From positions 96,001-160,000 of the IMG/VR virus record IMGVR_UViG_3300021400_001148: a DNA stretch of 64,000 bases; one strand, written 5' to 3'. Below are positions 15,132 to 63,603 of the stretch, piece after piece. Position numbers and translations under genes: made by a program. The notes below the pieces were generated by a model. It worked only from the letters and a program-made list of their open reading frames with translations, ran no database searches and was not told the DNA's origin. This stretch comes from a virus (lineage: Duplodnaviria; Caudoviricetes). How positions within the stretch are numbered: position 1 is the stretch's first letter; each line of letters opens with the position of its first letter.

Positions 15132-16082
15132 ATGACACAGGAAGAAAAGCAAATATTGTTGATTGACCTTTGCGCAAGGTTGCCTTATGGGGTTAAAGTA
15201 AAAATAACTAATGAGGGTGTTCTATCGGTTGATAGTGAAAAAGGAACTCTTGATGGTAAAGAAATCATGAGTGATGACTGCTTCACTATTAAATGTGATA
15301 AGGATAGTTGGATATTGTCATATGATGAATTCAAACCTTATCTCCGTCCAATGTCAAGTATGACTGAGGAAGAGAAGTGGGAATCTATTGATATTAAGAA
15401 AGGGGAATGCAACGGCTGTGTTCTTACTGGAAAAGGTGACCCAAATACAGAATTTATGCTAGTTGATTTCTATAATAAGCATCACCTTGACTATCGCGGA
15501 TTGATTCCTATGGGAATTGCTCTTGAAGCCCCGGGGAAATGTATGAAAATATATAAAAACAAACAGAATATGACAAGAGAAGAAAATATCACCGTTCCTC
15601 GCTGGTTTCTCGAAACAGTGGAAGATACGCTTCGGATTCAGAACAATATCAACCTTGATAAAAGTACCGGGGAAACCTGTCAGGACCGAAATGTAAAAGA
15701 ATCTCTCAACGGATTGCGAAAACTTTTGAGAGGCGAAGAACTAACCGGGGGAGAAAGATTGGAAAAGTTACAGCCCTCCCTTCCCTCCAATCTGGACGAG
15801 GCAGCAGAAGAAACAGCCAAAAAATATTATTGTTCGTGTTTGGAAAAGCACAATGAAACCGGCATTTGCGATGGGTGCGAAAATGTAAAACTATCTTTCA
15901 AGGCCGGTGCCGAGTGGATGGCCGGACAGGGATATGTCGATACTCACGCAGTGATAAATGAATATAGAGATTGGGGTGACGGGTTTGCAAATCTGGAACT
16001 TGCCATTGCCACCAATGATGATTTCTTTGAAGATTGGCAAGAACCGAATGAAATAATCATCCAAATCCGAAAGAAACAGTAA
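15132..16082 (+). CDS. Family A domain fused to family C domain (possibly two genes that lost a stop)
   Basis: Family A motifs, then MTREE...QPSLPSNLDEAAE...FKAGAEWMAGQG. Confidence 0.65.
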   Translation: MTQEEKQILLIDLCARLPYGVKVKITNEGVLSVDSEKGTLDGKEIMSDDCFTIKCDKDSWILSYDEFKPYLRPMSSMTEEEKWESIDIKKGECNGCVLTGKGDPNTEFMLVDFYNKHHLDYRGLIPMGIALEAPGKCMKIYKNKQNMTREENITVPRWFLETVEDTLRIQNNINLDKSTGETCQDRNVKESLNGLRKLLRGEELTGGERLEKLQPSLPSNLDEAAEETAKKYYCSCLEKHNETGICDGCENVKLSFKAGAEWMAGQGYVDTHAVINEYRDWGDGFANLELAIATNDDFFEDWQEPNEIIIQIRKKQ

Positions 16083-16084
16083 CC

Positions 16085-16411
16085 ATGAGAACAAAACCCA
16101 TACATCCCGATGAAGAACTTTTTACAAAGTCCGGCTTAAGTTATGAGCGTATCCCCATCCCAACAGCCGTAACAAAAATACTTAGGCGGAAGGTGGGAGA
16201 TAAGGTATTAATTTGCCACTATGCGAGAAATACGCACGACACGGCTGTATTGAACTATGTGAGTTTCAATGAGGGATTTTTACACCAATATGCAGGCTAT
16301 AGTTTCGGTATATCCCCGGGGCAAACACTAAAAGAAAAACTCATTATAGTGGCAGAGAATATTGCTGAGACTTGGCCGGAATATGCAGTAAGAAAACGAA
16401 AGAAACAGTAA
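16085..16411 (+). CDS. Hypothetical protein
   Basis: Flanked by identical junction repeats. Confidence 0.65.
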   Translation: MRTKPIHPDEELFTKSGLSYERIPIPTAVTKILRRKVGDKVLICHYARNTHDTAVLNYVSFNEGFLHQYAGYSFGISPGQTLKEKLIIVAENIAETWPEYAVRKRKKQ

Positions 16412-17974: not shown

Positions 17975-18963
17975 TTTCCGTATTCTCCGTAACACCATTT
18001 TAACGGAATAATAAAGATGCGGACTTTTTCCGTGAATAGAATAGTATGAAGTCGGTGTTTCCCCGGGGTACGGATGTGGTTGACAGTCAGGATGTTATGC
18101 GGAAGCGCTTTGGGGGCCCCGGGGAAAAATAGGGGAAGAAAGTGGAAGAAAATGGAAAAAAGTGGAAAAATTGGCCTTCCGAACTGCGGCTCGTGCGGCC
18201 GCGACCCCCTGGAAACAGTAAAAAATTATTAAGTTACGAAAAAAAATCGACATATCCCCGGGGCCCGGCGCAATTCAATCAGCGGCGAAGTCCTTTCCGC
18301 ATTCAGCACATTTTATCGGAATATATTCTGCACAATATTTTATTTTTGTATATTTGTATAACCCCGGGGGTCCGGCAGTTTCCTTTTCCCCTGACCGGTA
18401 TTATTCCCCGGGGTTTTTATTATAATGGAATACGTTCGGCTACATAAGGCTGCAATTGTCAAAAGGTCGAAAAATCATCTATAGGAAATTCCGGAAAAGA
18501 GGGTATTTTATTGTCAAAAGGTCGAAATTCAGATGAAGTCCAAGTTCAAGATAGGAATGGAATCCCCGGGGGTTGTGATTGACACCACCTCTTGGGGATA
18601 TTCCCCCGGGGCGGGTGTGGATGTATTTTACCCACAGTGGATGAGGGCGGTTCTTTCTCCCCGGGGCGTGAACGACATCGGTGCCATATGGTTGTTCGGG
18701 GAAAGTATGAAAATGACCGGCCACGGGGATGTGTTCATCTTCAGGAACCAGAACCGGCTTAAGTACTACGGGAAATGAGAAAGGTTGACAGTCCCTCTGG
18801 TTTTAGGAGGATTTTCGAAGTCGGGGTGAAATATATTTTCGACCCGTATTTCTGGTACTATTCCCGGTACGAGCCTCCGCAGGATGAAAATCCCAATTCT
18901 TTCAGGGACTGGAACAGATTTTCAGAGCGGTGGTAATATTTATAGAGGATAAAACTTTTATAT

Positions 18964-19149
18964 ATGCCAGAAAGGGTTTTCAGTGGACTTATGATTGCAT
19001 TCGGGCTTGGGGGTGTGTTCTATTCCCTCGCGCATCTTATGCTTGTCAATCCCATCGCCGGGGTTGTCGGTTTCCTTGTGAGTATGATTGTGGCGATACT
19101 GGGTCTGGACGACAGTGCGAAGAACGACGAACGCAACGGGAAAAAATAA
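18964..19149 (+). CDS. Small membrane protein
   Basis: Two hydrophobic helices. Confidence 0.5.
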   Translation: MPERVFSGLMIAFGLGGVFYSLAHLMLVNPIAGVVGFLVSMIVAILGLDDSAKNDERNGKK

Positions 19150-19257
19150 CAGATTGAAACTTTTTTTGAATTTTTGCTTACGATTTTTTATTTTTTCGTA
19201 AGTGAATTTTTTGAAAACTGTAAGCAAAAAGGGGCTAACCTGAGAAAGGCTGGTCCC

Positions 19258-19911
19258 TTAATATTTTTTCGGTGTGTCGTGCATCCGTCTGAAGACATTG
19301 AGGCATTGGATGCTCCAGTTTATGAAATATACCTCCCGGGGGTTGGCGTTCATATATCCGCGGGAGACAAGTGCTCTTCTGGTGTTGAACATCTTGCTCC
19401 TGAGACTGATGGTATCTATCCCCGGGGAATCCGGTGTGCGGACACAGTGCCGGTAGAAAAATTCAATGTTTCTCATATTCTGTTTGGTTGGTCCCTGTGT
19501 ATCTTGTTTTCCGGGCGGTGCATTTTCCTGAACTCGTTGAGGTATTGGAGCGAGTAGTTTACGAAATAATGTGCCCCGGGGTCTTTGTTTTTGTCCCACC
19601 ACAGCATCTGGGAAGGAAAGACGAAAAGGCGGCCGTACCAATATTCTATGCCTATGCTTGCAGGGGAATCCATTGAATGTCCGGCGTGCTTGTTTGCAAA
19701 TTCAATCCATCTCATAATAATAGTCTTCCGTGTGCTGGTCTACCCATTCCGGGTTTCTTGTCCGTGGCCAGTTGGGGCCGAGTCCAAGTGCGATGTCCCC
19801 GGGGTACTGGATAAAAGAAAAGCGCTCCCAGAAGAAAATATCATCGGGAGTGCTGTCGAAGAGGCTGTCCTCGGGGAAATATCTTGCCGGCGATTCTGGG
19901 CCCCTTTCCAT
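19258..19911 (-). CDS. Three coupled small hypothetical ORFs (19702-19911, 19473-19715, 19258-19476)
   Basis: Overlapping stop/start junctions downstream of the DUF1599 gene. Confidence 0.45.
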
Positions 19912-19913
19912 TG

Positions 19914-20495
19914 TTACTTCCTGTGCAGGGCTTCTACTGCCATTATTGAATAGGCCGCAAGGTCCCTCAGCGTGTCTTCAATGCTTTCGTCCTTGACCTT
20001 CTGTTCAACCCCGGGGGATGTAAGGGTCTTCAGCCTGCGGTACTTGTCGCCGATACGCATAACATATGAATTGATGCCGAACTCCTTGTAGGATTCATAT
20101 GCAGCGTCACCGTAATCGTTGTTCTTCCGTTCGTGGAGGTCCATAATCTCACGGGCGATGGTGTCAAATGTGAGGATGCGATTCGTCTGGAAATCTGCTT
20201 TGGCTGCGGCGACTCCCTCATCGGAAATTCTTTCCTTGTCAGGGCCACAGCTCTCCCAAGGGCGGTAGGTGGCGTATTCCTCCCACCATTTTTTTCCTTC
20301 AAGCGTTGGAGATTCCTTCACTTCCGCCTCTGGTGCCACATAGGGCTTCCCTGATTTGTCTTCCTCTACCGGCACATTCCAGTATCTCGGTGTGTTTGCA
20401 TTAAGTTTATTCTTTACCATACTTTGTTTGTATTTTTTGTGGACCCCGGGGACGGTGACACTCCGCCTTACGCCCGGTAAAAGCCGGGGCTTCAT
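19914..20495 (-). CDS. DUF1599/Nmad1-like nucleotide-modification-associated protein
   Basis: ERKNNDYGDA...RIGDKYRRL...ESIEDTLRDLAAYSIM. Confidence 0.75.
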   Translation of the reverse strand: MKPRLLPGVRRSVTVPGVHKKYKQSMVKNKLNANTPRYWNVPVEEDKSGKPYVAPEAEVKESPTLEGKKWWEEYATYRPWESCGPDKERISDEGVAAAKADFQTNRILTFDTIAREIMDLHERKNNDYGDAAYESYKEFGINSYVMRIGDKYRRLKTLTSPGVEQKVKDESIEDTLRDLAAYSIMAVEALHRK

Positions 20496-20520
20496 AAACC
20501 AAAAGCCTCCCGGGGTTGTT

Positions 20521-21366
20521 TTATTCCAGCACTGTTATCGCACTGGGAGGGATGTTGTCGAAAGTGTAGACCGCCTGATACTGTCTGGGGTCATAGTAGA
20601 ACCTTGCCCCGGGGACTGCGGCCACATCTATTTCAAGCTGTACGAAAGTATCCCCCTCCGGATTCTTCTCCTTAAAATAAAATTCGGGTTGTATGGCGTT
20701 TTTCTTGGTGAAGAAATATATCCTCGATGTGTCGGCCTTCACATTCTCCGGTTTGAGCAGGGTCTCGTTTTCTCCCTTGGTGTGCCCGCCGAAGCCTTTC
20801 CACTGGCTCAGTTTGGGGTTGAGGCCGATGCGGAGGATTTTCTTCAGATGGCGGGTCTTGCAGAAATGGTAGAGTTTTCCCAGTTTCCGTACCTCGTCGG
20901 TAAGGTCCTCGGTGAACTTCTTCTCGAGCGAGACTGTCAGGCATCTCCCCCCGGGGATTCCCGAAAAACTTGAAACCCGTTCACTGACATATGCCCAGCC
21001 GAAATCCTGTGCACGGCTGATGGCTTTCCACTTGATGGTCTCCTCCATTTCCTGATTGGTTATGTGGATGATGATATGATTCTTATCCCCGGTAATCAGG
21101 ATGAACCCGTTGTACTCCCCCGGGGTGTATTCACTGGGGGTGTATTCATTGATGGGGCTCAGGTTGAGGAGACTGCACAGGTGCTTTACCAGCATTTCCG
21201 CGGGGTAGGTCCTCAACACCGCCTCGTCCAGCGCAAGAAGCGGGGCGTATTCCATCTTCGCCATATCCTCATCCAGTGACACCGGCCTGAGCCTTCCTCC
21301 GGTTATCATCTCCCCGGGGAAACCTCTGACCTCGCCGGTCTTTTCATCTATTCTTGCTTTTTCCAT
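20521..21366 (-). CDS. ADP-ribosyltransferase-fold (Tpt1/KptA-like) domain protein
   Basis: LYH..TRHLKKILRIGLNPK...RIYF...VYTFDNIPPSAI; start placed at MEKAR downstream of a TATATTTG box. Confidence 0.55.
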   Translation of the reverse strand: MEKARIDEKTGEVRGFPGEMITGGRLRPVSLDEDMAKMEYAPLLALDEAVLRTYPAEMLVKHLCSLLNLSPINEYTPSEYTPGEYNGFILITGDKNHIIIHITNQEMEETIKWKAISRAQDFGWAYVSERVSSFSGIPGGRCLTVSLEKKFTEDLTDEVRKLGKLYHFCKTRHLKKILRIGLNPKLSQWKGFGGHTKGENETLLKPENVKADTSRIYFFTKKNAIQPEFYFKEKNPEGDTFVQLEIDVAAVPGARFYYDPRQYQAVYTFDNIPPSAITVLE

Positions 21367-21881
21367 CTCTATGCAAATATACAAAAAATATTTGGAATTG
21401 TGAATAAAAGACCCCGGGGGAAAGATGCCTTTATTAAAAAAAAGCGCACGATGGAGAACATACTTCACGGTTAAAATTAAATTCGCCCCCTGCTTGTGCC
21501 TACTACTTTCTTTCGACATTATAAAGATACGAAAAATATTACTGACTTTACCGGCCTCGGCGCAATAAAGCCCCCGGGGGGAAATAATACGCCCACACTT
21601 CGGCGCAGGTTGGAGTCTAGTTTCTGCGGTTGGGGTCACTGCTCCGCAAGTATGGCTACTTCCTTTCACCAGTACAAAGATAGCAAAAAAATCTGAGAAC
21701 CCCGGGGACTGGGCGCAAGGTGCGCTGCTGAAAAATGCGCTGCTGAAAAAAAAAAGAAGCCCGACATCTCACGACGGCGGACTTCCGAATAAATGTAAAT
21801 AATGATACTAGTAAATAATGATAAAAGTCAGTACAAATATACAAAAAAATTTTCAGACTTTGCCGTGTACGGCGCAGCCCG

Positions 21882-22703
21882 CTACATCTCGTCAAGCGGT
21901 TTCTGGGGAACACCGTCCAGAACCGGAAGGTCCCTGTCCTGACGGGCCTTGACAATCGCACGCCCGAAGTTACGGTAATAGGATTTCAGTACCTCGTCGT
22001 AGATTTTCTTGAACTGCCCCGGGGATACTTTGTATTTCTTCAACTCCAGTTCGGTACGCTTGTCGGAAAGGAAATCCTCCTTGTTGTCGTTGAGGTATTT
22101 GATGTTCCGGTATACCACTGTACTTTTAAGAGCCTTCTCTTCTTCTTCCGGGGATTTAGCCTGAAGAACAGCGGCGTAGATATTGTTGATATTGGCGTCG
22201 GTCTCCGCTTTCTCGTAGTAGTAAAAGACAAAGGCCACGGCTCGCGGAATCAAGCTCATGCTGGCGAGACTGGCAGTAGCTGTCCGGTATATATTCTCGT
22301 CACGGACCAAGTTCGGCCTGATTCCGGAAGCGTGCTGGAATGCGTGGTGGAGTTCGTGCTGAAGGTTCAGGGAACTGATGAGTTTCTTCTCACTGACGAT
22401 ATACCCGGAGTTGAGGTAGATGCTCTTCGTGGCTTGGTTGTAACTGGAGTTCATGCCACCCCAGGAACTCGCACGCTGGTAGTCGGCCATAGTCTGGAAC
22501 GGAACGACCCTGTATACCACGGGGATTTCAATTTCTTTCCCCGGGGTTTTTATAGTCGCCCACTCATATCCAGTCAGGGTGTCACTTATCGGAGGATTGC
22601 TCTTGACTTTCTCGGATATCGCCTTCCAGATTCTTCCGGCCTCCGAGGCGACACTGTCATTCACCCCGAGTTCCTCGTTGATGTACTGTTTGATTTCTTC
22701 CAT
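21882..22703 (-). CDS. Putative zincin metallopeptidase
   Basis: LQHELHHAFQ (HExxH) with downstream Glu. Confidence 0.6.
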   Translation of the reverse strand: MEEIKQYINEELGVNDSVASEAGRIWKAISEKVKSNPPISDTLTGYEWATIKTPGKEIEIPVVYRVVPFQTMADYQRASSWGGMNSSYNQATKSIYLNSGYIVSEKKLISSLNLQHELHHAFQHASGIRPNLVRDENIYRTATASLASMSLIPRAVAFVFYYYEKAETDANINNIYAAVLQAKSPEEEEKALKSTVVYRNIKYLNDNKEDFLSDKRTELELKKYKVSPGQFKKIYDEVLKSYYRNFGRAIVKARQDRDLPVLDGVPQKPLDEM

Positions 22704-22706
22704 GTA

Positions 22707-23201
22707 TCAGTTATTCGGGTTTGTCCAGCCCCGGGGGATGTCCGTGTAGGCATCGCCCCTGAGCTGCTGCTTCCGCCAGTCGGAGGTATAGTGGTAGACC
22801 TGCCCCCGGGCCGCCTTCAATGTTTTCTCATATGCCCGTCTGCACTCTTCCTTCGCCGCATTGACAAACTCCGGGGCCTTGTCGTTGAGGAACGCGTCGG
22901 AGTCAATCATATTGTAGGCCTTGCAGTAAAAAGCCGCAAAGTATCCGTCGCTCGGTGCCTTGGCGTATGCCTCAACAACTTTCTCCCACTCGTCGTTTAT
23001 GCTCTTCACATACCGTTTCTTGCCCTCGTCACCGGTCTTGTGTTCTGTCACGGTAGCACTGTAAACGACGGAACCTATGCATATCACGAACTCCCTGTAG
23101 GTTTCAGCATACACATAGTTGAAGTTGAGGTGCTCGTGCTGTGACTTCCCCGGGGTGAGGAAGAGCAGGAGAGAAATTATGGAGAGGATTGTTCTTTTCA
23201 T
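22707..23201 (-). CDS. Secreted/periplasmic hypothetical protein
   Basis: MKRTILSIISLLLFL signal-peptide-like N-terminus. Confidence 0.6.
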   Translation of the reverse strand: MKRTILSIISLLLFLTPGKSQHEHLNFNYVYAETYREFVICIGSVVYSATVTEHKTGDEGKKRYVKSINDEWEKVVEAYAKAPSDGYFAAFYCKAYNMIDSDAFLNDKAPEFVNAAKEECRRAYEKTLKAARGQVYHYTSDWRKQQLRGDAYTDIPRGWTNPNN

Positions 23202-23249
23202 GCGTTGAGGTAAAATGTGGGACTCAAACGAGTACCAATAGCGCCGGTA

Positions 23250-23558
23250 TCAGAGGTCCTCCGGCTTCTCGAGGGTTTTCATCTCCGCAAGGATGCGGGT
23301 ACGGTCGGCGGCGGTGAGGGTGGGCCGTGCGACAGGTCTTGTGTGTGGGCCGGCGGGGTTGGGGTCGTGCGGTGGACGGGTGTCTTCTTTTTTCCCCGGG
23401 GTGTTCCCTTCATCGTGAGTCACCTCCCGGTGTATGGTAAGCACTTCGTCCTCTATCACATTGACCTCGTCCTTTACATAGTCCAGTTCTGACTTAAGCA
23501 GATAGTATAATACTATTGCAAGGGCAATTATAATTGCCAGAGAATACACGGTGTTCAT
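23250..23558 (-). CDS. Membrane-anchored hypothetical protein
   Basis: MNTVYSLAIIIALAIVLYYLL anchor; start adjacent to the upstream stop. Confidence 0.55.
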   Translation of the reverse strand: MNTVYSLAIIIALAIVLYYLLKSELDYVKDEVNVIEDEVLTIHREVTHDEGNTPGKKEDTRPPHDPNPAGPHTRPVARPTLTAADRTRILAEMKTLEKPEDL

Positions 23559-23559
23559 A

Positions 23560-23868
23560 CTACTCTTCCGCGGGCCTCCACATCCCTCCTGAATAACGCT
23601 GGGTGTTGAGGATACCCAGAAACTCCTCCGGGGTGGCATATGAAACTCTCTCCCGGAGCACCCCGTAACCGTTGAAGGAAGTCCTCTCCTTGACAAAGCA
23701 GGCCCCGGGGTATCCGTCCCCTCCCCTGTAATAAGTAATGCAGTCATATCCCAGACTCTTCCTCTGGTTGTCTGAAAGGTAGAGGGTTGTAGCGTGGGAC
23801 ATCTCATATTCCCCGCAGCCGCTCTTGGCAATGATATTATCAATAATGGTGATACAAGAATTAGTCAT
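23560..23868 (-). CDS. Hypothetical protein
   Basis: Packed ORF. Confidence 0.55.
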   Translation of the reverse strand: MTNSCITIIDNIIAKSGCGEYEMSHATTLYLSDNQRKSLGYDCITYYRGGDGYPGACFVKERTSFNGYGVLRERVSYATPEEFLGILNTQRYSGGMWRPAEE

Positions 23869-23870
23869 GT

Positions 23871-24575
23871 TTATTCTTCTAAGAGTTTTTTTAATTCAGC
23901 AGTCTTCTTTGGTAGCCCTAATTTTTCAATATGCTTTCTGATACTGGTTTCACTAACCCCTAATTCCCTAGATACAGCACTACGGTTGTAATCGTTCTCT
24001 TTTAATATTTTTATAAATTCTTCGTCACTTAAATTTATTTTGGCTCTTTGCTTTGATGCGCAAGAAAGACAATATATTGCTGCCTTTGTTTTGACCTCTC
24101 TCCCACAGATGGGACAATACTTTTTTTCTTTTTTACTTACCCCACAATAATTTTCTGTTTGGCTGTGGCAGTTGGGACATAAGATTTGCAAGTTTTCTAA
24201 TCTATTATCTTTATGGTTACCGTTTTTATGGTGTAACTGACACACCAGTGGTTTTCCTTGCCATTCACTAACACCGCATATCTCGCATTTATTCTCCTTA
24301 AAACCGTCCTTAATTAATCTGCTTTTTAATTTCGAAGAAGTAATGAATGTGCCATCTATAGTCAAGTATTCCTCGGTTTTTTTCTGTAGTTTTGGAATTT
24401 CTTTGGGGTGGAAAGTGAAATGCTGATTTGTGATATTGTACAATTCCATTTTCCTTTTAAGTGTACTAACATTATTTCCTTGGCATGGAATTCCTAATTT
24501 CCGCAAAGTTTCTTGATAAGAAAAACTGGCATTCACTGCCGCTCTTATGTCGCTTTCATTCCAATTGTATTTCAT
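23871..24575 (-). CDS. Free-standing HNH homing endonuclease with zinc finger and C-terminal HTH
   Basis: CEICG...LHHKNGNHKDNRLENLQILCPNCH; CPICG..CLSC; AVSRELGVSETSIRK; AT-richer than neighbours. Confidence 0.85.
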   Translation of the reverse strand: MKYNWNESDIRAAVNASFSYQETLRKLGIPCQGNNVSTLKRKMELYNITNQHFTFHPKEIPKLQKKTEEYLTIDGTFITSSKLKSRLIKDGFKENKCEICGVSEWQGKPLVCQLHHKNGNHKDNRLENLQILCPNCHSQTENYCGVSKKEKKYCPICGREVKTKAAIYCLSCASKQRAKINLSDEEFIKILKENDYNRSAVSRELGVSETSIRKHIEKLGLPKKTAELKKLLEE

Positions 24576-24593
24576 ATTTTAACACTATTTAAG

Positions 24594-24665
24594 TTGCCCC
24601 ACCCCGAGTTGAACAGGGATTACTGGTGCCAAAAACCAGTGTAATTACCGTTATACGATAGGGCA
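24594..24665 (-). tRNA. tRNA-Gln(TTG)
   Basis: Acceptor TGCCCTA/TGGGGCA; anticodon arm CTGGT-TTTTGGC-ACCAG; T arm CCCTG-TTCAACT-CGGGG; no encoded CCA. Confidence 0.9.
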
Positions 24666-24727
24666 GTCAGTTATAAATAGTGTTAGTACGAATTTTTTTT
24701 ACTTTATTTACAAACATTTTAGTGTTG

Positions 24728-25264
24728 TGGTCCCTGCAGGACTTGAACCTGCGACCCACTGATTCGTACCACTATAGCTTTCGCTACCAAAATATTGGGT
24801 CTCCCACCCAAGAATCGCTTGTTACAGCTTATTTTGTTTGTGGTCTGGACTCTATCTTAACCATATTGAAATCTTGCAAGATATAAAGTATGACTTAATG
24901 CTGGGTCTCACAGCCATCGGCCACATAGGTTCTCTTTCCTCATACTCTATAATTTCAACTTAGGTTCCTCCTGTATAGTCTCTACACACTGTCTATAAAC
25001 TTAACCGTCTATTATCATTTAAGAAATTCGAACAACTTACAATTTCCATAGATAATATGGAGAACTTAATTTTTTACGGTTAAAGTTTAATAACATTGGC
25101 TCGGTATTAGCATGAGCGAGGTTCATCCATATGATGATTTTCTTAACCTTCTTTTAGCTTTAACCGAATTAGGGAGGTTCTACATCCGGAGTTTCCCCCG
25201 GTGCATACAATTTCTTTTTTCAAAGAACTAATCAGTTGCTCTGACCAACTGAGCTTAAGGGACC
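24728..25264 (-). tRNA. Intron-split tRNA with Ile2/Met-like body; anticodon ambiguous (exons about 25264-25227 and 24764-24728)
   Basis: 5' half GGTCCCTTAAGCTCAGTTGGTCAGAGCAACTGATT; 3' half AATCAGTGGGTCGCAGGTTCAAGTCCTGCAGGGACCA; acceptor and anticodon stems pair across the insert. Confidence 0.85.
24765..25226 (-). ncRNA. ORF-less group I intron (IC3-like)
   Basis: P AATTCGGTTAAA (25159-25170), Q AATACCGAGC (25099-25108), R GTAGAGACTATA (24974-24985), S AAGATAGAGTCC (24847-24858); GAAA-capped P2; terminal G at 24765. Confidence 0.9.
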
Positions 25265-25271
25265 ATCTATG

Positions 25272-25727
25272 TTACTCGCCGTCAGCGATGCGGTCGATGT
25301 ATCTTTCATTGTGTTCCGCCACACCGTTCGCTTTCCTGTCGAACTCCCTTATCTGGGAATAGAACTCGCCCAATACATCCTGAAGGTCGGCCAGCCTCTT
25401 CCTCAGGGACTTCACAGCATTCAGATAGGCATTCCTCTCGGCCTTGGCGCGGGAAATCCTCTTGCCCTTTTCCACATCGAAGGTATCCCCCGGGGCTACA
25501 GTAGCGTATCCTCTGGCAGTTCCAGTGACATCCCCACCCGTCATACGCTTTCCGTCAATCCATCCGTAAAAGTAAAGCCCCTCCATGATGTTGGTTATGG
25601 GACGAGGCAGTATCGCCTGATAATCGATGACAGTCACAACCAGATTCTTCTTCTCGTCGACATAAGTCTTGGGAGCGTAGGTCCGCAGCTTGATGCTGTT
25701 GCGGTTAAATTTGGTAAACTTCTTCAT
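25272..25727 (-). CDS. Conserved phage hypothetical protein
   Basis: GDTFDVEKGKRISRAKAE motif; own promoter at 25755-25762. Confidence 0.7.
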   Translation of the reverse strand: MKKFTKFNRNSIKLRTYAPKTYVDEKKNLVVTVIDYQAILPRPITNIMEGLYFYGWIDGKRMTGGDVTGTARGYATVAPGDTFDVEKGKRISRAKAERNAYLNAVKSLRKRLADLQDVLGEFYSQIREFDRKANGVAEHNERYIDRIADGE

Positions 25728-25900
25728 ATTTTTTCTCTTTTAAATTTCTTTCTGCAAATATACAAATAAATTCCGGAATAATGCCCAGAGTGGCGCAATA
25801 TCGTACTCAAACGAGTCCTAAACCGCTTATATAGAGATGGTTATCATAGTTTTTGCACAATTTTCAAAGGGTATTATAACAGTGCAAATTACTATATTGT

Positions 25901-26709
25901 CTAGCAAACCCTTAGGATGGTAATGTTGAAAGGATTCGGCGATGTGCTCTTGACTGTCATGCTCTCCCCCGGGGAAAGAGCCTCAACCCTTTCCTGTGAA
26001 ACCCCGAGGACGAAGAAAGTCAGTTCATCCTCCCCCGGGGACACCGAGAGACTGGTCACCATAACTCCAGACGGGCCGTTCGGGGTCACGACAATATACT
26101 CCTTCCTCCCCTCTCCGTGGGACTGGAAATAAACATTCTCAATCATAGTTCCTAGATTTTACGGTAACGGAAATCCACCCCGGGGTTTCGCTCCTCGAGT
26201 TGCTTCTTGATGGCCTGTGCGTCAGACCTCCAGTCACAGCAAGCAACCATTGTCCACTTGCCTGCATCGTCATTGTATCTGCTTACGATGTACATATTAA
26301 TACCTGTGCAAAATGGTTTCTTCGAAAGTTGCGTTGAGGCCCTGCCCCACCAGTCTGTAGTAGTAGTCCCTCGCGGTGGCATAGTCCTCAAATGTGGTGG
26401 GCTCATACCCGTCAGCGGTGCAGTCCACGAGATATCCGGTTACTGTCTTCATACCCACCTCCCCTTTGAATTGCGTCCGTATACCCTTTCCAGCATATAG
26501 ACATCGTCAAAGAGGTTCTCCGGCTTGTCCACTCCGTCACCTCGCAGGTCCGAGACTTTCTTTAGACGCCTCTTCAAAATACAGATGCCGGTGTTAACCA
26601 GATTTTTGTCAATCAGCCAGTCGGCATATACCTTTGCACCCTTCAGAGTGCTTTTGATGGCGTAGACGACACTGCCCGCGCCCTCAACCACATAAATGAA
26701 ATTGCCCAT
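25901..26709 (-). CDS. Four small hypothetical ORFs (26449-26709, 26297-26452, 26152-26295, 25901-26146)
   Basis: Tightly coupled minus-strand ORFs. Confidence 0.55.
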
Positions 26710-26801
26710 ATAGTTTCCTCCTTCTTTTAAGCCTCCGGGGGAAAATGGTACTCAGATGAGTCCGAGCCCCGGGGTATATGTAACATTTTTGTTTCTTACC
26801 G

Positions 26802-27614
26802 CTAAATATCCTCAACAATCTCCGCCCCGGCCATGCCATACCTGAGAAACTTTCCGTCAGACAGTATTCCGTCCCCGGGGAATTTCCCGTACTTCAAAGA
26901 CACATGTTTCCACAGTCGCCGGAGAAATACCTTTGCTTCCCCGATGGTGCGCAAGTGAACCCTGTCAGCGGTGCAGTATTCACGGAGGCGGGCTCTCTCC
27001 CACTCCGGCCCGCATAACTCTATCCTTGCCTTCATGCCACAATCCTCCCCCAGAGTTTTCTTACATCACCGGCACTCATCCTGCTCCAGTCCACGCCCCA
27101 CATCACATCAGAACCATACCAAGGTCTGCACTGCAAACCCAGGAGGTCACCGGCCCATACCATAGAATAGGCTTGAAACTTTGTGTGCTTGCGGTCTCTG
27201 AGCTGTTTCCCGAAATCCGCGACAACAGTCTCCACACCAGGCTGACAGCGAAGATGGTTCTCTATCTCCGCCACCATAATGTTTTTTGTAATCCTCATAT
27301 TATGAATACATTAAAGCCAGTACCTCGTCGGCAACCGTACCGAGGTCATAATAGATTTTCGTCCCGTCCATGCAGGTCAGCCACACCACCTCGCTCACAT
27401 CATCCCGAACCTGCCTCGCGATGTCCGCGGTCTTCTTGTCGAAGGCATAAAACGAGGTCGCTCCCCCGTGCCCGTCATTTGACACCCGTCCGATGGGCGT
27501 CCCGTCACAAACAAGTGTGGCAATGTAATCGCAGGTCTCTTCCGAGTGGATGCCGAACTCAACATCCCTCAAGGCGAACATATGCCCGCCAATGTACTTG
27601 AATCTCTTTTTCAT
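26802..27614 (-). CDS. Three small hypothetical ORFs (27300-27614, 27032-27298, 26802-27035)
   Basis: Coupled ORFs behind the promoter at 27634-27641. Confidence 0.6.
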
Positions 27615-27920
27615 ATCTTGTTCTTCTTTGTTACAAAGGTACAAAAAACTCTCCGGACTATGGCGGATTTGGCGCAGCGTATGCGGATGTTACAAAAGTG
27701 GTGTTTACAAATGTAACATTCGAAAATGTAACATAAGTAATTGTTACAGAGGAAGTTATAAAAAAATATATTAAGTTACGAAAAAATTTTGAAACATCCC
27801 CCGGGGTAGGCGCAAGGAGGAAATGTCGGCACAAACAACTAATATAACAAAAAAATTTGGGACCCCCGGGGAGTTAGGCGCAAAAGTGGCAGCCCCGCTT
27901 GCGCCTAAAAAGAAAACGGG

Positions 27921-37602: not shown

Positions 37603-37719
37603 ATCTTTGTTCTTTTGTTTACATCACAAAAGTAGTGAATTTTTTTCAGAACTTCACTTGTTAGGCGCAGCGGGGGCAGCCTGCCTTGCGCCTAAAAGAA
37701 AAACCCGCAGGTGCGGGCT

Positions 37720-38430: not shown

Positions 38431-38603
38431 ATCCGTTCCTTTTACATTACAAATATAGTTAATGTTTTTCATTGACTGTCCGTTTTGGCGCAACGGGGGC
38501 AGCCGGCTTTGCGCCAAAAAGAAAATAGGTAGCCCCACTCCCAAAGGATGTACAAACCCCGGGGGAATAGGACTATCCTGTTGTAGTCTTTTTTTTTCGA
38601 GAT

Positions 38604-39777: not shown

Positions 39778-40077
39778 TTTGTTTCCTTTTGTATAACAAA
39801 GATAGTAAAATATCCTCACCACTTGTCGGGTAAGGCGCAACATCGGCTGCCAGTCCTGCGCTTAAAAGAAAATGGTACTCAGTTGAGTACCACTCTCTTA
39901 TAAATCGTGCTCATTCATCCAATCCACATCCACGAAGTATGCGGAACTTCCGAAGTCATCCATACCCTTGTCATTATTGATAAGGTAAGCGTTGTCATCA
40001 AATCCCTCGACCATCATAAGGTCCTGGATTTCGGGCCAACCAACAGCCACATAGTTTCCTGTCCTGTTTGTCATATC

Positions 40078-45335: not shown

Positions 45336-45401
45336 ATTACAAATATACTACATTTTGTTTTTGTTTTGTCAGTTCCGGCGCAACGCACGCCCCTCCCACT
45401 T

Positions 45402-54034: not shown

Positions 54035-54545
54035 TACCCCTCCCTACACTACCCCTATGGGAGGACCTCCTACATCTTACCTCTATCTCCCCTCCCTACA
54101 TTTCCCCTTCCTACAAATGGCCGTTTAGGGGCGGACTGTTGGCCGTGAATTTTTTACTAATTAAAAACCCGTTTCACATAGGGGGTAGGGGTCTTTTTCT
54201 GAAAGGCCTTTTTCAAAAAATTTTTTTAAAAAATTCACGGAATTCTCCTAGCAGACCCCCGGGGGGGGTGGGAAAACAGAGGCCCCCGGGCCGGGGGAAA
54301 AGGTGGGGCGGGGGGAGGACGCGGTGAAGCCCCGGGGGCAATTGTGTGTACGGGGAAGCAAATGTACCGGGAACAACCGTTCAAATTTAAAATCTTGCTC
54401 TGAAACGGAAAAAACTTAGGGGTAGGGGGTCTTTTTCCCAAGGTACCATATCCCGAAAAAATTTTTTATATGTAACTTATTGATTTTCAAATATTTGCTA
54501 TTTGCTCACGAAAAGCAAAGCAAAACCCCCGGGGGGTTATCCGAG
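54035..54545. other. Noncoding G/C-skewed divergence region (possible genome end or origin)
   Basis: C-rich CCCTAC tracts, then G-tracts; GGGGTAGGGG(G)TCTTTTT twice; CCCCGGGG three times. Confidence 0.45.
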
Positions 54546-60238: not shown

Positions 60239-60467
60239 AACAAATATTACCAATTAATTTTTTAAGTCTTTCGTCGATTTCAACACCATCTTTCGGAACA
60301 ACTTTCACTGGGAATGATAATTCTTTTCCCGGCTTGGAAAAAGAGAATCCGCCACCCCAATCAAGGCGCTGCTGGTGATTATAGTCCCACAAAACGACCT
60401 CATAATTATCAAATTCCCGGTCTTGGAAATGAATAAGAATATCTCTCAAATCTCTTATTGTCATCAT
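60228..60467 (-). CDS. Hypothetical protein
   Basis: Coupled ORF. Confidence 0.6.
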   Translation of the reverse strand: MMTIRDLRDILIHFQDREFDNYEVVLWDYNHQQRLDWGGGFSFSKPGKELSFPVKVVPKDGVEIDERLKKLIGNICYGD

Positions 60468-61531
60468 TTTTGGAGGTGTTTAAGTATTTCAGCAACAACA
60501 TCAATTGTCCAGCAATTTCCGAGGAGTCTGTATATCTGGCGTTCGGAGACATCCCAAACATAGTTTTCGGGAAATGTCTGCAGTTTCGCGCACTCACCCG
60601 GCTTCAGTATACGAACTTCCACATGTTTAGGGTCATTGAACTCTATTGCTCCAGTGATGGTTTCTCGTATGAGTTTGCATCCGTTACTCGGTGCTTTATT
60701 TGCAAAAGTCTGTCTGACGGCACCAATCTTATTGACATTTTTGGGGAATTTGTGATTGTAGTCATCATAAGGCAACCAGTATCCCCGGGCAATTTCTTTT
60801 GGTACTGAGTCTACACTCATCTGGTCCAAAATTTTCTCAACACTTTCAGGGGGAAGGCAGTATTTGGCGTTGTCGGTTTCCCAGTCAAGGTAGTTGAAAA
60901 GGTCATACTTCCCAGTAAGGTCATCAACAAAATTAACATCATCAATAATGTTCGTCCAATAAAGTCTGCGTCTTGTTTGCCCTGAGATAACTTTACTATT
61001 AATATAAAGCGGTTTGACACCAAGCGAGTCACTTATAATGTTTTCCCATTTTTCATTCATACCAATGTTTTCCAAAAGGAATTTTACATTGGGATTAACA
61101 GTATTCACCTCATTTAATATTCTGATGAATTCCCAAATGAGGTACCCCTGTCCATCAAATTCAAAGCCGGTGTCCTTTAACTCGAGATACTGTTTTAGGC
61201 TTGTGACCTCAACGGGTTCAATTGGCAATTCAACATCTTTTCTGCCAGTAAAACAAAGCGACTGGCATAATACTCCACCGATGACAAGGCCTGCATCAGG
61301 GAACATCTTACCATCCACTTCGCGGGCATCGCCAATCTGCATAATTTCCGGAAAGTTTATATGCGTTTGATAAATGGCGTATTTGTCAGTTTCACTGGCG
61401 AAATAGCGTTTTGTTTTAATCCCACAACGGTCCAAAGCCAGTTTGGCCCCACCAATGCCATCAAAAAGACTCAGTACAGTAATCCCCGGATTTCGTTTAA
61501 AAATTTTTTTCAGTTTTGCAAAAAGGTTCAT
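60464..61531 (-). CDS. C5-cytosine DNA methyltransferase (atypical catalytic loop)
   Basis: LSLFDGIGG (I), GGVLCQ (IV, normally PCQ), ENI (VI), QTRRRLYW (VIII), LQTFP/LGN (IX-X). Confidence 0.85.
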   Translation of the reverse strand: MNLFAKLKKIFKRNPGITVLSLFDGIGGAKLALDRCGIKTKRYFASETDKYAIYQTHINFPEIMQIGDAREVDGKMFPDAGLVIGGVLCQSLCFTGRKDVELPIEPVEVTSLKQYLELKDTGFEFDGQGYLIWEFIRILNEVNTVNPNVKFLLENIGMNEKWENIISDSLGVKPLYINSKVISGQTRRRLYWTNIIDDVNFVDDLTGKYDLFNYLDWETDNAKYCLPPESVEKILDQMSVDSVPKEIARGYWLPYDDYNHKFPKNVNKIGAVRQTFANKAPSNGCKLIRETITGAIEFNDPKHVEVRILKPGECAKLQTFPENYVWDVSERQIYRLLGNCWTIDVVAEILKHLQK

Positions 61532-61532
61532 A

Positions 61533-62807
61533 TTAAAGTTTTTTTAAAATTACAATATATTCGTTTGTTATAGTGCTTGATTTTTCGCCAGATTTATTCG
61601 TCGGCGAATTCTTTGATGGCATACGCTTGGTAGGAAACTCCCTGACGATGGTTTCAACGTGTTTGAATCCGTTCTGTTCAAAAATTTCCGCTGTAAAATA
61701 ATCAAGTGGTATTTGAACATTCTTCACTGTGCGGTTTCCCACAACATAACAAGCAACGCCACCCGGGCTGATAATTCTTGAAATGTTACAAATTGATTTG
61801 TAGTAATCATTCAGAAAAGACACAACCTCAAAATATCTTTTTTCATCGGTTTTTTTTATTTCCACTAACGCCGATTCCACTGACTCGGAAGTAAATAACT
61901 CCTTGGTTTGCTTTTTGCCACCCATAAGTTCTTTGTCAAGTGACTTATCACTCAGCCCGAACCATTCATTGGCCCACGAACTAAATTCACCGTAAGCCAC
62001 GGTAGTTCTACTATCTCCATATGGGGGAGAAGTAACAACCATATCATAAGGAACCTTTTCAAAAGCACTAATGAAATTATCTGACATTTCACAAGAATTC
62101 ACTTTCATCGTAATAGCCGCACCCATTGCCCCGGGAGTTGGTAAAGCGGCACGGTAAGATTCCAAGCCCTTGAGGTTCCTCTCAACCTTATTCACAAATG
62201 TTCCGAAAACATCCGGGCTAAATCGTGCAAGTTTTTCCTTGTCCATCCGGTAACGCTTGAATTCCCCGTTTCTCGTAAACGATGTCTCCCGCACGGTTTC
62301 GGCCAAAGGTATGTAAAAGAATTGCCTGCCTTCCCCATCATCAACAACAAGGTCGATACACCGTTGTATGAAATGAAGTTTTTTGAAGGTTTCTTCACTG
62401 AACCAGTATTCCCAGTTCTTAATCTTTTTGTATTGGTCTGGTGTCACTGCATCCGGAAAATACCTCGTTAGCCGGTCTTTAATGTCGATGAAGTACTTGC
62501 CAAGCGGTGCGTTGGTAAACGAACGGCACTTTGTCTTACTTATCATCAATGCAAGGGGGTTTAAGTCGTAACCACAGACATTGAGGCCGGCGAGTAAACC
62601 TTCGACCAGAGAGGTGCCGCTACCACAATACGGGTCTAAAAGCGATTCCGCCCCAGCTGGCTTATATTCTGTAATGAGTCTTCTTGCTATCTGGGGAATC
62701 ATCATCGCCGGGTAATTGTGATAACAGTGCGTATATTCTTTGGTATCAACCCCCTGAAAATCCCACGAGTGGTCAATCGTTCTTTTATACTCCTTCATCG
62801 TTCTCAA
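61533..62807 (-). CDS. N4-cytosine DNA methyltransferase, M.MvaI-like architecture
   Basis: HNYPAMMIP, DPYCGSGT preceding TSPPY. Confidence 0.8.
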   Translation of the reverse strand: MRTMKEYKRTIDHSWDFQGVDTKEYTHCYHNYPAMMIPQIARRLITEYKPAGAESLLDPYCGSGTSLVEGLLAGLNVCGYDLNPLALMISKTKCRSFTNAPLGKYFIDIKDRLTRYFPDAVTPDQYKKIKNWEYWFSEETFKKLHFIQRCIDLVVDDGEGRQFFYIPLAETVRETSFTRNGEFKRYRMDKEKLARFSPDVFGTFVNKVERNLKGLESYRAALPTPGAMGAAITMKVNSCEMSDNFISAFEKVPYDMVVTSPPYGDSRTTVAYGEFSSWANEWFGLSDKSLDKELMGGKKQTKELFTSESVESALVEIKKTDEKRYFEVVSFLNDYYKSICNISRIISPGGVACYVVGNRTVKNVQIPLDYFTAEIFEQNGFKHVETIVREFPTKRMPSKNSPTNKSGEKSSTITNEYIVILKKL

Positions 62808-63603
62808 TCGGTTGTTGGTTCAACATGTTTTCGGCCAGTGCAATTCTTCGTTTAGAGATGTCGAAGTATTTCTCTACCTTTTCTATACCAATAAAGTTTC
62901 TTTTTGTCAATACCGCCATTTTACCAGTAGTACAACTTCCCATAAAAGGGTCGAGGACAGTATCCCCCTCATTACTCCACGATATGATGTGGTCTTTCGC
63001 AAGGTCTTCTGGAAATATTGCCGGATGCTCGAAGGCTATTTTATCTTTGGCAGAATTGCCCCCACCGATAGAATAATTCCAAATATTAAACCTTTTTCCA
63101 TAAGGCTCTCTGACCGAAGACTTTCCGATATTGCGAACCCCGTCCCTGTTCCTTCCGCTGGCACCTCTCTCGCATACATAAAGATTTTTACGGTCTTTAA
63201 TGAAATTGAGCGTCTTGGGTTTCCCTTTTGAAAAGACAAACATATATTCGAAAACCTGGTGATAGCAAGTTTTGGATGGAAAAGCAAAAGACCCTTTATT
63301 CCAAATCATCGTATCATGGAGATTGAAGCCAATCTCCTTGAAATACAACGCCTGCTTGAATGAACTTCCTGTTTCACTTCCCTTGATTACGGCGTCACCT
63401 ATCACCCACACAACAACACCACCTGGTTTCGTCACTCTGTAAAGTTCATTCGCAACCTGTTTAAAGATATCAAAGTTCCAAACAAGTTCTCCTTCATATG
63501 ACCTTAAATCATCATATGGAGGTGACGTCACGGTAAGGTCTATACTACAGCCCTCAAGTTCTTTAAGTTTTTCAACACAGTCACCAAGAATTAGTTTTAC
63601 CAT
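62785..63603 (-). CDS. Beta-class N4/N6 DNA methyltransferase
   Basis: TSPPY, HPAIFP, LDPFMGSCTT. Confidence 0.9.
   Translation of the reverse strand: MVKLILGDCVEKLKELEGCSIDLTVTSPPYDDLRSYEGELVWNFDIFKQVANELYRVTKPGGVVVWVIGDAVIKGSETGSSFKQALYFKEIGFNLHDTMIWNKGSFAFPSKTCYHQVFEYMFVFSKGKPKTLNFIKDRKNLYVCERGASGRNRDGVRNIGKSSVREPYGKRFNIWNYSIGGGNSAKDKIAFEHPAIFPEDLAKDHIISWSNEGDTVLDPFMGSCTTGKMAVLTKRNFIGIEKVEKYFDISKRRIALAENMLNQQPIENDEGV

What the first reader, a model, noticed from the sequence alone, without database searches (positions are those of the whole stretch)
18061..27871. Regionally confined, highly iterated palindrome CCCCGGGG written through coding sequence
Seen: about 34 exact copies in 9.8 kb, against well under one expected by chance. 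They lie inside ORFs in several frames, forcing PG/PRG/PGE residues. I saw none in 1-15 kb, about eight scattered through the dyad array, and a small cluster at 54.2-54.55 kb. The dense zone ends where the first full dyad begins (27864 versus 27877) and skips the HNH/tRNA/intron block, consistent with those being later arrivals or under RNA constraint. Known: cyanobacterial HIP1 and DNA uptake sequences behave this way, but genome-wide. Inference: a local binding lattice (partition/centromere-like, packaging or injection-stop signal), a methylation-read domain, or a decoy for host restriction enzymes.
Basis: partly seen in the sequence, partly recalled or inferred. Interest (0 to 1): 0.82.

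Follow-up and report, generated by a model that had tools for sequence, protein, structure and literature searches.

The report
Domain-restricted CCCCGGGG lattice in phage
A giant gut phage and at least three distant relatives keep about three copies per kilobase of the 8-letter palindrome CCCCGGGG inside one conserved 10-kb gene module, rewriting proteins to do so, which points to a DNA-level mark on one chromosomal domain whose reader is still unknown.

Summary
There are 34 exact CCCCGGGG in window 18061-27871, 47 in the window and 72 in the 354.8-kb phage genome, where about 1 is expected.

The excess survives a codon-aware null: 23 coding sites against 3.0±1.6. Of the 23 Pro-Gly pairs in zone proteins, 21 are spelled by the motif. 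Coding and non-coding DNA are equally dense.

The main new result is that the zone is not an accident of this genome. Three further lineages share the same syntenic module at 26-76% protein identity, and all carry 2.6-3.2 sites/kb at 43-56% GC. Site positions are almost all different between lineages. In one lineage the zone again starts where an array of the GGCGCAA...TTGCGCC dyad ends.

Ten other jumbo relatives have no site, and candidate Bacteroidales hosts are not enriched. Sites are never closer than 40 bp. One-letter deviations fall on the outer letters, and some relatives enrich only the core CCCGGG.

Best reading (0.45): a selected lattice of binding or modification sites that marks one domain. 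It resembles HIP1 but is domain-restricted.

This scan earlier noted CCCCCGGGGG genome-wide in another giant-phage-like genome (e1-2851212); I did not compare the two.

The parts
18061..27871 (.). Dense CCCCGGGG zone: 34 exact copies (3.4 per kb), 23 in coding sequence and 11 intergenic. GC is 0.475-0.50 and GC3 0.64.
15529..16321 (.). Two outlying sites (15529, 16314) in plus-strand genes just left of the zone.
18040..18290 (-). Non-coding core conserved at DNA level in four lineages. In order: TTGCGCC half-dyad, T-run + GTAACTT promoter-like box, CAGTTCGG, CCCCGGGG, then 3-4 ten-bp TTCCACTTTC iterons (about 18131-18171). It lies inside the densest stretch of the zone (8 sites in 18061-18666).
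27300..27614 (-). 104-aa gene (GIHSEE...NGHGG family), the first gene of the zone. In all four lineages the dense zone starts in the promoter region of this gene.
25272..25727 (-). 151-aa zone gene conserved in all four lineages. The predicted fold weakly resembles the RAD52 N-terminal (strand-annealing) domain.
19914..20495 (-). DUF1599 (nucleotide-modification-associated domain) gene, present in every motif-bearing module found. It carries two sites, one on a family-conserved Pro-Gly.
23871..25265 (-). Site-free insert: HNH endonuclease gene (23871-24575, GC3 0.33), tRNA-Gln (24593-24665) and a tRNA-like gene split by a roughly 480-bp insert (24722-25265).
27877..27905 (.). First full dyad (GGCGCAA-N4-GGCAGCC-N4-TTGCGCC) of the neighbouring array. 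The zone/array junction is conserved in lineage NODE_167.
54257..54534 (.). Small intergenic cluster of three sites at the far (divergent) end of the dyad array, next to another T-run + GTAACTT box.
60464..63603 (-). Cluster of three DNA methyltransferase genes (C5 355 aa, 421 aa, N6/N4 272 aa). They are candidate writers. Their specificity is unknown and they are absent from the motif-free relative G003.

Best explanation
CCCCGGGG is a selected DNA-level word. It forms a lattice of about one site per 300-400 bp that marks one conserved chromosomal domain. That domain is a module of about 15 small genes, with an iteron-bearing non-coding core at a point of convergent transcription.

The lattice is most likely read by a dimeric sequence-specific protein. 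This could be a binding protein, or a methyltransferase/methyl-reader pair whose core site is CCCGGG.

Shown:
- The word is imposed on coding and non-coding DNA alike.
- It changes amino acids.
- Its density is held at about 3 per kb in four lineages while individual positions turn over.
- Its domain boundary is conserved.

Inferred:
- A protein reads it.
- Occupancy of the whole domain is the selected property. The purpose would be silencing or insulation, replication or recombination control, or segregation.
For: 1. Enrichment beyond codon usage: 23 coding sites against 3.0±1.6. Pro-Gly occurs 23 times against 7.3 expected, and 21 of the 23 are spelled by the motif. Density is about the same in coding DNA (23 sites in 6.66 kb) and non-coding DNA (11 sites in about 3.2 kb).

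2. Conserved genes outside the zone: 7 of 11 orthologous positions in G003 and 5 of 7 in G006 hold other residues. The rest hold Pro-Gly with other codons. Only one site is shared with G006.

3. Three further lineages share the syntenic module at 26-76% identity: L267/NODE_167, L268-270 and L272/NODE_1040. They have 2.56, 3.18 and 2.86 sites per kb at GC 0.556, 0.426 and 0.486, against 3.43 per kb here. Only 3 aligned positions are shared between lineages.

4. The boundary is conserved. In all four lineages the zone begins at the promoter of the 104-aa gene. In NODE_167, 18 full dyads with 1 site in 14 kb are followed at once by 23 sites in 8.7 kb.

5. The feature is clade-specific. Ten jumbo relatives (126-412 kb) have no site. 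80 loci with distant homologues of the 104-aa protein have 3 sites in 750 kb. Candidate host genomes have 18-20 sites per 1.8-3 Mb.

6. No two sites lie closer than 40 bp in 105 intervals. None of 5000 random placements achieves this.

7. The signal peaks sharply on the perfect word: 102 perfect sites against about 46 one-off variants in the four zones. Deviations fall mainly at the outer positions. Related lineages enrich the core CCCGGG with relaxed outer letters.

8. Flanks are pyrimidine-rich 5' and purine-rich 3', in mirror image.
Against: - No reader or writer was identified. Zone proteins have no Pfam or PHROG DNA-binding hits.
- Between strains 2-4% apart, motif letters change about as fast as expected: 4 substitutions and 2 indels in 288 bp, against an estimated 7. 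Purifying selection on single sites is therefore not demonstrated.
- There is no helical or other periodicity, and spacing is otherwise near-exponential.
- A repair-driven origin could also give turnover at constant density.
- The backbone is also enriched about 15-fold, so the word is not purely a domain mark.
- The >=40-bp exclusion could equally reflect avoidance of RNA or DNA hairpins between self-complementary copies.
Confidence: 0.45

Rival explanations
1. A methylation-coupled repair drive of the kind Elhai proposed for HIP1. A phage methyltransferase modifies CCCGGG or CCCCGGGG. A methyl-directed very-short-patch-like repair then converts near-matches to the perfect word. The lattice would be a by-product without a function of its own, and denser where the process acts longest or most often.
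For: - The phage has two C5 and three N6/N4-type methyltransferase genes, none with a homologue in the motif-free relative G003.
- One-letter deviations are biased to the outer letters, and centre CpG-to-TpG variants are almost absent. This is the pattern Elhai reports for HIP1 (PMC4390886).
- Core CCCGGG with variable outer letters in relatives.
- Positions turn over while density stays constant.
Against: - No credible Vsr homologue: best hit 16.9 bits, below the cut-off.
- A genome-wide enzyme does not explain a 30-fold density step at a syntenically conserved boundary.
- As far as I know, VSP repair in E. coli gives only modest excesses, not 70-750-fold.
- Methyltransferase specificities are unknown. 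The one contig with an orthologous methylase trio was uninformative: 1 site in 11.9 kb, reached by 19 of 200 shuffles.
Confidence: 0.2
2. An RNA-level signal. The word acts in the transcripts of the module, for example as a target of a sequence-specific RNase or RNA-binding protein, or by pairing between self-complementary copies.
For: - The zone coincides with one or a few transcription units that start at the 104-aa gene promoter.
- Copies closer than 40 nt, which would make stable 8-bp GC hairpins, are absent.
- Outside the zone, several intergenic copies are arms of terminator-like hairpins.
Against: - The word is a perfect palindrome.
- It is equally dense in genes of both orientations, in promoters and in untranscribed-looking spacers.
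- Nothing requires an RNA motif to be palindromic.
- No Rfam family matches the zone.
Confidence: 0.08
3. A foreign island. The zone was acquired from a donor whose whole genome is rich in the word, and the local excess is only inherited composition.
For: The zone is compositionally distinct: GC3 is 0.64 against 0.37-0.43 in the backbone, with a sharp left boundary. One zone protein has no homologue outside this phage species.
Against: - The same module with the same density sits at the same syntenic place in four lineages whose proteins have diverged to 26-76% identity, with different site positions. The excess is therefore maintained, not inherited.
- L268 has the density at only 43% GC.
- No donor was found, and candidate hosts are not enriched.
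- The backbone also gains sites.
Confidence: 0.03
4. Protein-level selection for Pro-Gly turns, or a codon-usage artefact.
For: Nearly all coding sites read Pro-Gly (21) or Pro-Arg-Gly (2). The DUF1599 Pro-Gly is conserved across the family.
Against: - Non-coding DNA is equally dense.
- Synonymous shuffling removes most sites.
- DUF1599 homologues in motif-free phages encode the same Pro-Gly as CCT GGG or CCC GGA.
- Orthologous positions mostly lack Pro-Gly.
Confidence: 0.02

Closest known systems
HIP1 (GCGATCGC) and alternate highly iterated palindromes of cyanobacteria (Elhai 2015, PMC4390886; Xu, Lawrence & Durand 2018, PMC5861425)
   Same: A GC-rich palindromic octamer, tens- to hundreds-fold over-represented. 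It is written through genes in several frames and through spacers. One-letter deviations are biased to the outer letters around an inner hexamer that looks like a methylase site. The function is unknown.
   Different: HIP1 is genome-wide in cellular genomes. Here 47% of copies lie in 2.8% of a phage genome, and this locality is conserved in synteny. HIP1 sites are reported to be positionally conserved, whereas here positions turn over between lineages while density is held. No cognate methylase has been identified.
Domain-marking binding sites of bacterial chromosomes: matS/MatP of the E. coli Ter macrodomain, and parS/ParB clusters near origins (my own knowledge, not tested here)
   Same: Short palindromic sites, tolerated inside genes, are concentrated in one chromosomal domain and read by a dimeric protein that organises that domain.
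   Different: Those systems use far fewer and longer sites (about 23 matS in 800 kb; fewer than 20 parS). No MatP- or ParB-like protein was found here, and membership is untested.
Clusters of methylatable palindromes at control regions: GATC in E. coli oriC (SeqA sequestration) and in the phage P1 pac site (my own knowledge)
   Same: A local excess of a short palindromic methylase site next to iterons or an initiation region. Here a 10-bp iteron tract sits in the densest part of the zone.
   Different: Those clusters span 150-250 bp of non-coding DNA, not 10 kb of genes. Methylation of CCCCGGGG in this phage is unproven.
Earlier notes of this scan: CCCCCGGGGG genome-wide in another giant-phage-like genome (e1-2851212); AGTACT in Rak2-like jumbo phages (e1-123044)
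   Different: Those are described as genome-wide. This one is domain-restricted, with a conserved boundary. I did not compare the genomes.

Membership tests
Highly iterated palindrome (HIP1-like) | A short GC-rich palindrome far above expectation under composition and codon-aware nulls | tested here: met
   47 against 0.65 in the window. 23 against 3.0 coding sites in the zone. 24 against 1.6 in backbone coding sequence.
Highly iterated palindrome (HIP1-like) | Present in coding DNA in several frames and in non-coding DNA | tested here: met
   Frames 11/10/2, and 11 intergenic sites at the same density.
Highly iterated palindrome (HIP1-like) | Genome-wide distribution | tested here: not met
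   34 of 72 copies lie in 9.8 of 354.8 kb. The same step occurs in NODE_167.
Highly iterated palindrome (HIP1-like) | One-letter deviations biased to the outer letters around an inner methylase-type hexamer | tested here: met
   Variants are commonest at positions 1-2 and rare at the centre. Relatives enrich CCCGGG with relaxed outer letters.
Highly iterated palindrome (HIP1-like) | A cognate methyltransferase for the inner sequence is present | tested here: inconclusive
   Five methylase genes are present with unknown specificity. The orthologous trio in L367 was uninformative.
Highly iterated palindrome (HIP1-like) | Individual sites conserved between genomes beyond the neutral expectation (Xu et al. 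2018) | tested here: not met
   Between strains, changes occur at about the expected rate. Between lineages only 3 aligned positions are shared.
parS/ParB- or matS/MatP-type domain marker | Palindromic sites concentrated in one chromosomal domain | tested here: met
parS/ParB- or matS/MatP-type domain marker | A cognate site-specific binding protein is encoded | tested here: inconclusive
   No DNA-binding family was found among zone proteins. The rest of the genome was not screened.
DNA uptake sequences | The word is enriched in the genome of a naturally competent host and is shared by host and phage | tested here: not met
   Three candidate Bacteroidales host genomes have 18-20 copies per 1.8-3 Mb.
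Intrinsic terminator stems | The copy pairs with a nearby complementary arm followed by a T-run | tested here: not met
   This is true for about 7 of the 12 intergenic copies outside the zone. Inside the zones no two copies lie closer than 40 bp.

The most novel reading that the evidence does not exclude
These phages partition an accessory region of their chromosome into adjacent domains, each painted with its own palindromic word. One is a promoter-linked dyad array. The other is a non-positional CCCCGGGG lattice, held at about 3 sites per kb, that coats a replication/recombination-type module and is read by a dedicated, still unknown protein. This would be a heritable 'chromatin domain' code in a virus, and a small tractable model for what highly iterated palindromes do.
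Probability: 0.3. Interest if true: 0.85.

Novelty: new variant of a known kind. Interest (0 to 1): 0.7.

Why it matters
Highly iterated palindromes have lacked a demonstrated function for about thirty years, partly because they cover whole cellular genomes.

Here the same kind of signal is confined to a 10-kb module of a phage. It has a sharp boundary that is conserved in evolution, a similar density in all four lineages, and natural motif-free relatives to serve as controls.

That turns the question 'who reads or writes the word, and what does occupancy do' into a small experiment: pull-down or DAP-seq with a few candidate proteins, methylase expression, and long-read methylomes.

It also shows that phage genomes otherwise purged of palindromes (GATC count 0) can strongly select for one.

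Tried and rejected
- **Periodicity of spacing.** No significant period was found. Adjacent distances fall evenly into the three classes modulo 3 (34/36/35).
- **GC-skew sawtooth around sites** (a lead from earlier notes on other genomes). Absent beyond ±10 bp.
- **Host-wide enrichment.** Not seen in three Bacteroidales genomes that carry the phage's IS1595 transposase at 90-91% identity.
- **blastn and tblastn against cultured phages.** The zone has no match. The capsid is T4-like, at most 39% identical to isolates.
- **Two zone proteins in IMG/VR.** No relatives found.
- **Vsr.** Only a sub-threshold hit.
- **Methylase link through an orthologous methylase trio in another 362-kb phage.** 1 site in 11.9 kb, which is inconclusive.
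- **Lower divergence of the zone between strains.** 98.1% identity against 95-96% in the flanks, but at 4-fold sites only 3.8% against 5.8%, which by my rough estimate is not significant.
- **'Relatives avoid CCCGGG'.** G003 has 0 against 9.9 expected from composition, but only 0.5 under a Markov model, so I dropped this.
- **Rfam on the zone.** Only tRNA-Gln, no intron family.
- **Fold of the 151-aa protein.** RAD52-like at Z about 8, which is within the range of chance for such models, so it is kept only as a lead.
- **Whole-record counts for ENA contigs.** Not possible with these tools.


Full report
**1. What the DNA is**

The window is bases 96001-160000 of a 354,809-bp IMG/VR phage record. 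IMG/VR classes it as having direct terminal repeats. The repeat is only 99 bp, so it most likely reflects a circular assembly. GC content is 41.3%.

The phage has a T4-like major head protein, a portal and an anaerobic ribonucleotide reductase, among others. The nearest cultured phages share at most 39% capsid identity. Identical or 95-98% identical contigs occur in several public assemblies.

An IS1595 transposase in the phage is 90-91% identical to copies in Bacteroidales genomes: Ca. Cryptobacteroides, the rumen MAG RUG13086 and a Bacteroidales MAG. This fits the Bacteroidota-type TAnnTTTG promoters seen in the zone.

**2.

- CCCCGGGG occurs 47 times in the window, against 0.65 in shuffles.
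- 34 copies lie in 18061-27871, and the whole genome has 72.
- In the zone, 34 of 37 CCCGGG are the full octamer. GGGGCCCC occurs once, and no flank is conserved.
- With the genes read as, 23 sites lie in 6.66 kb of coding sequence and 11 in about 3.2 kb of spacers, which is the same density.
- Coding sites use frames xxC-CCC-GGG-G (11), xCC-CCG-GGG (10) and CCC-CGG-GG (2).
- Pro-Gly occurs 23 times against 7.3 expected, and 21 of the 23 are spelled by the motif.
- Synonymous shuffling within genes gives 3.0±1.6 sites, largest 8 of 2000.

The backbone is enriched too. Its coding sequence has 24 sites against 1.6±1.2. Pro-Gly there is not in excess (177 against 232 expected), and only 23 of these are spelled by the motif.

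**3. The word is written over proteins**

I took backbone sites that lie in conserved genes and aligned the orthologous codons of two relatives. The relatives are G003 (capsid 66% identical, motif-free) and G006 (capsid 87% identical).

- In G003, 4 of 11 positions keep Pro-Gly with other codons (CCA GGA, CCT GGG and the like). The other 7 hold other residues.
- In G006, 1 of 7 positions is the same site, 1 keeps Pro-Gly with other codons, and 5 differ.

Sites therefore arose by both silent and replacement changes.

**4. It is specific to a clade**

- Ten jumbo relatives with 62-68% capsid identity (126-412 kb each) have no copy at all. The nearest relative, a 57.7-kb fragment, has four.
- Three candidate host genomes have 18-20 copies per 1.8-3 Mb.

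The word is therefore neither a host-wide word nor a family-wide one.

**5. The key result: the zone is conserved in evolution**

Homologues of the zone's DUF1599 protein led to contigs from other samples that carry the same syntenic module. The shared genes are the 104-aa gene, the 151-aa gene, the 86-, 102- and 102-aa (membrane) genes, DUF1599, a 61-aa membrane protein and small W/Y-rich proteins. Protein identity is 26-76%.

Site density per lineage:

| Lineage | Sites per kb | GC |
|---|---|---|
| G000 (this window) | 3.43 | 0.475 |
| L267 / NODE_167 | 2.56 | 0.556 |
| L268 | 3.18 | 0.426 |
| L272 / NODE_1040 | 2.86 | 0.486 |

Aligned gene by gene, almost no site is at the same position in two lineages. 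The exceptions are the family-conserved Pro-Gly of DUF1599, a site near its N-terminus and one in a small protein.

DUF1599 genes in a different genomic context (a 380-kb and a 97-kb phage) sit in DNA with no site. They encode the same Pro-Gly as CCT GGG or CCC GGA.

The boundary is conserved as well. In all four lineages the dense zone starts in the promoter region of the 104-aa gene. In NODE_167, 18 full GGCGCAA-N-GGCNGCC-N-TTGCGCC dyads are spread over 14 kb that hold a single site. These are followed at once by 23 sites in 8.7 kb. This is the same junction as 27864/27877 in this window.

NODE_1040 shows a gradient from about 0.5 to 3 sites per kb, and has no such dyads.

At 26-76% protein identity, neutral DNA would have been randomised. 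The density must therefore be maintained or continually regenerated.

**6. Variants of the word**

- A more distant lineage, which carries a 47%-identical homologue of the 281-aa zone protein, has 5 of 5 and 2 of 2 CCCGGG as the octamer, at 0.4-0.55 per kb and 38% GC.
- Another group (151-aa homologue about 30% identical; one locus also has DUF1599 and the membrane gene) enriches the core CCCGGG, with 14 in 5.3 kb. Its outer letters are relaxed, often CCCGGGGA.
- Two further loci with a 151-aa homologue have no CCCGGG.

In the four zones there are 102 perfect sites against about 46 one-off variants. The variants fall mostly at positions 1-2, and CCCTGGGG/CCCCAGGG are almost absent. G003 has one one-off variant in 349 kb, while the G000 backbone has about 105.

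This outer-letter bias is what Elhai reported for HIP1, whose inner hexamer is a methylase site (PMC4390886).

**7. Fine structure**

- Spacing shows no period and is otherwise near-exponential, with a coefficient of variation of 0.8-1.1. However, none of 105 intervals is shorter than 40 bp, and none of 5000 random placements reproduces that.
- The ten bases 5' of a site are pyrimidine-rich and the ten bases 3' are purine-rich. There is no longer-range skew pattern.
- The zone is GC3-rich: 0.64, against 0.37-0.43 in the backbone and 0.52 in the dyad array. The HNH gene inside it has GC3 0.33 and no sites, and it has no counterpart in the other lineages. A later insertion fits these facts.

**8. 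Short-term evolution**

I compared this genome with strains 2-5% diverged.

- 32 of 36 sites are shared.
- Changes are mostly C/G flips at the centre of the word (C4G4 to C5G3, or C5G4 to C4G5).
- There is also one in-frame 3-bp deletion, one gain by two changes (26734), and one loss paired with a three-letter gain 15 bp away inside a tandem duplication (21118 to 21133).
- C/G transversions make up 4 of 10 substitutions in motif columns, against 38 of 513 elsewhere.
- The number of changes in motif letters is not clearly below the number expected.

**9. Context**

The densest stretch, 8 sites in 18061-18666, lies where plus- and minus-strand gene blocks converge. It contains a non-coding element conserved at DNA level in all four lineages. 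In order, the element holds a TTGCGCC half-dyad, a T-run plus GTAACTT box, CAGTTCGG, CCCCGGGG and 3-4 ten-bp TTCCACTTTC iterons.

Some intergenic sites lie between the half-dyad and a promoter, but most sites are not linked to a promoter.

The 151-aa protein gives a confident model (pLDDT 82.7). Its best structural matches are RAD52 N-terminal domains (Z 8.2, rmsd 2.3 Å over 77 residues), which is only a weak lead. A weak SSB hit lies in the L272 module.

The phage has five methyltransferase genes. None has a homologue in G003 or in the fetched zone loci. Their specificity is unknown.

**10. Reading**

Three explanations are excluded by sections 2, 3 and 5: protein-level selection for Pro-Gly, codon usage, and simple inheritance from a donor.

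An RNA role is unlikely for a perfect palindrome that is equally dense in both gene orientations and in spacers.

The remaining choice is between two accounts:

- **Selection for occupancy of a domain** by a reader, whether a binding protein or a methyl-reader. The conserved density step at a syntenic boundary, the common density of about 3 per kb across very different GC contents, and the 40-bp exclusion favour this. I put it at 0.45.
- **A methylation-coupled repair drive.** The outer-letter deviation pattern and the lineage-specific outer letters show that a methylase-type recognition (core CCCGGG) is probably part of the system. I put it at 0.20.

What the domain does is not shown. Candidate roles are silencing, control of replication or recombination around the iteron core, or segregation.

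**11. Novelty**

The closest known kind is HIP1. This case differs in being viral, domain-restricted and syntenically conserved, with positions turning over. It also lies next to a second domain marked by a different palindromic dyad.

A full-text search for CCCCGGGG (773 papers hold the string; I read the titles and abstract openings of the 30 listed) showed no phage or genome-signature report among them. Another note of this scan (e1-2851212) reports CCCCCGGGGG genome-wide in a different giant-phage-like genome. I did not compare the two.

Noticed in passing
window 18040-18290 (minus strand); L268 8945-9150; L272 12665-12890; L267 11950-12190: A non-coding element conserved at DNA level in four lineages. 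It contains 3-4 ten-bp iterons (TTCCACTTTC), a T-run + GTAACTT box and CAGTTCGG. It could be an origin- or centromere-like site, or a small RNA gene with CU-rich (or, on the other strand, GGA-rich) repeats.
   Followed up: partly
window 22543, 22733, 25970; 21416 in L004: Between close strains, substitutions inside the motif are mostly C/G transversions at its centre (C4G4 to C5G3, C5G4 to C4G5): 4 of 10 against 7% elsewhere. This hints at a site-centred mutational process.
   Followed up: partly
whole genome G000, G003, and all zone loci: GATC is completely absent (0 against about 1000 expected in G000, 0 against about 870 in G003). ACGT, AGCT and CATG are strongly depleted in G000. G003 lacks CTGCAG, CAGCTG and CTCGAG entirely.
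   Followed up: partly
window 24722-25265 (minus strand): tRNA-like 5' and 3' halves flank an insert of about 480 bp, next to tRNA-Gln and an HNH gene. Neither ARAGORN nor Rfam recognises a tRNA or an intron here.
   Followed up: partly
window 31572, 46752, 50796, 53534; G000 294949, 344320: Outside the zone, several intergenic copies are one arm of terminator-like hairpins of the type CCCCGRGG-loop-CCYCGGGG followed by a T-rich run.
   Followed up: partly
window 21118-21147: A 15-bp tandem duplication (protein repeat EYTPS/EYTPG). In strains L004/L005 the site has moved from the first unit to the second, through one loss and a three-letter gain.
   Followed up: yes
L365+L267 (ERZ842383 NODE_167, contig 36989-51445): A second phage lineage carries the same 7-4-7-4-7 dyad array (18 full dyads, 400-1350 bp apart) upstream of its CCCCGGGG zone.
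   Followed up: partly
window 25272-25727 (minus strand): The 151-aa conserved zone protein is predicted as a beta-beta-beta-alpha domain plus a long helix. Its best matches are RAD52 N-terminal domains (Z about 8). It may be a strand-annealing protein.
   Followed up: partly
window 60464-63603; L367 7929-11077: The trio of methyltransferase genes (N6/N4 272 aa, 421 aa, C5 355 aa) is conserved in order, at about 52% identity (measured for the C5 enzyme), in another phage contig of 362 kb.
   Followed up: partly
L145 (IMGVR_UViG_2974785949_000001, 170 kb): An unrelated viral record with 63 CCCGGG and 19 CCCCGGGG in 12.5 kb at 53% GC. This may be an independent case of CCCGGG enrichment.
   Followed up: no
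G000 215947-216888: The phage's IS1595-family transposase is 90-91% identical to copies in Ca. Cryptobacteroides and other rumen Bacteroidales MAGs, which is a clue to the host.
   Followed up: partly
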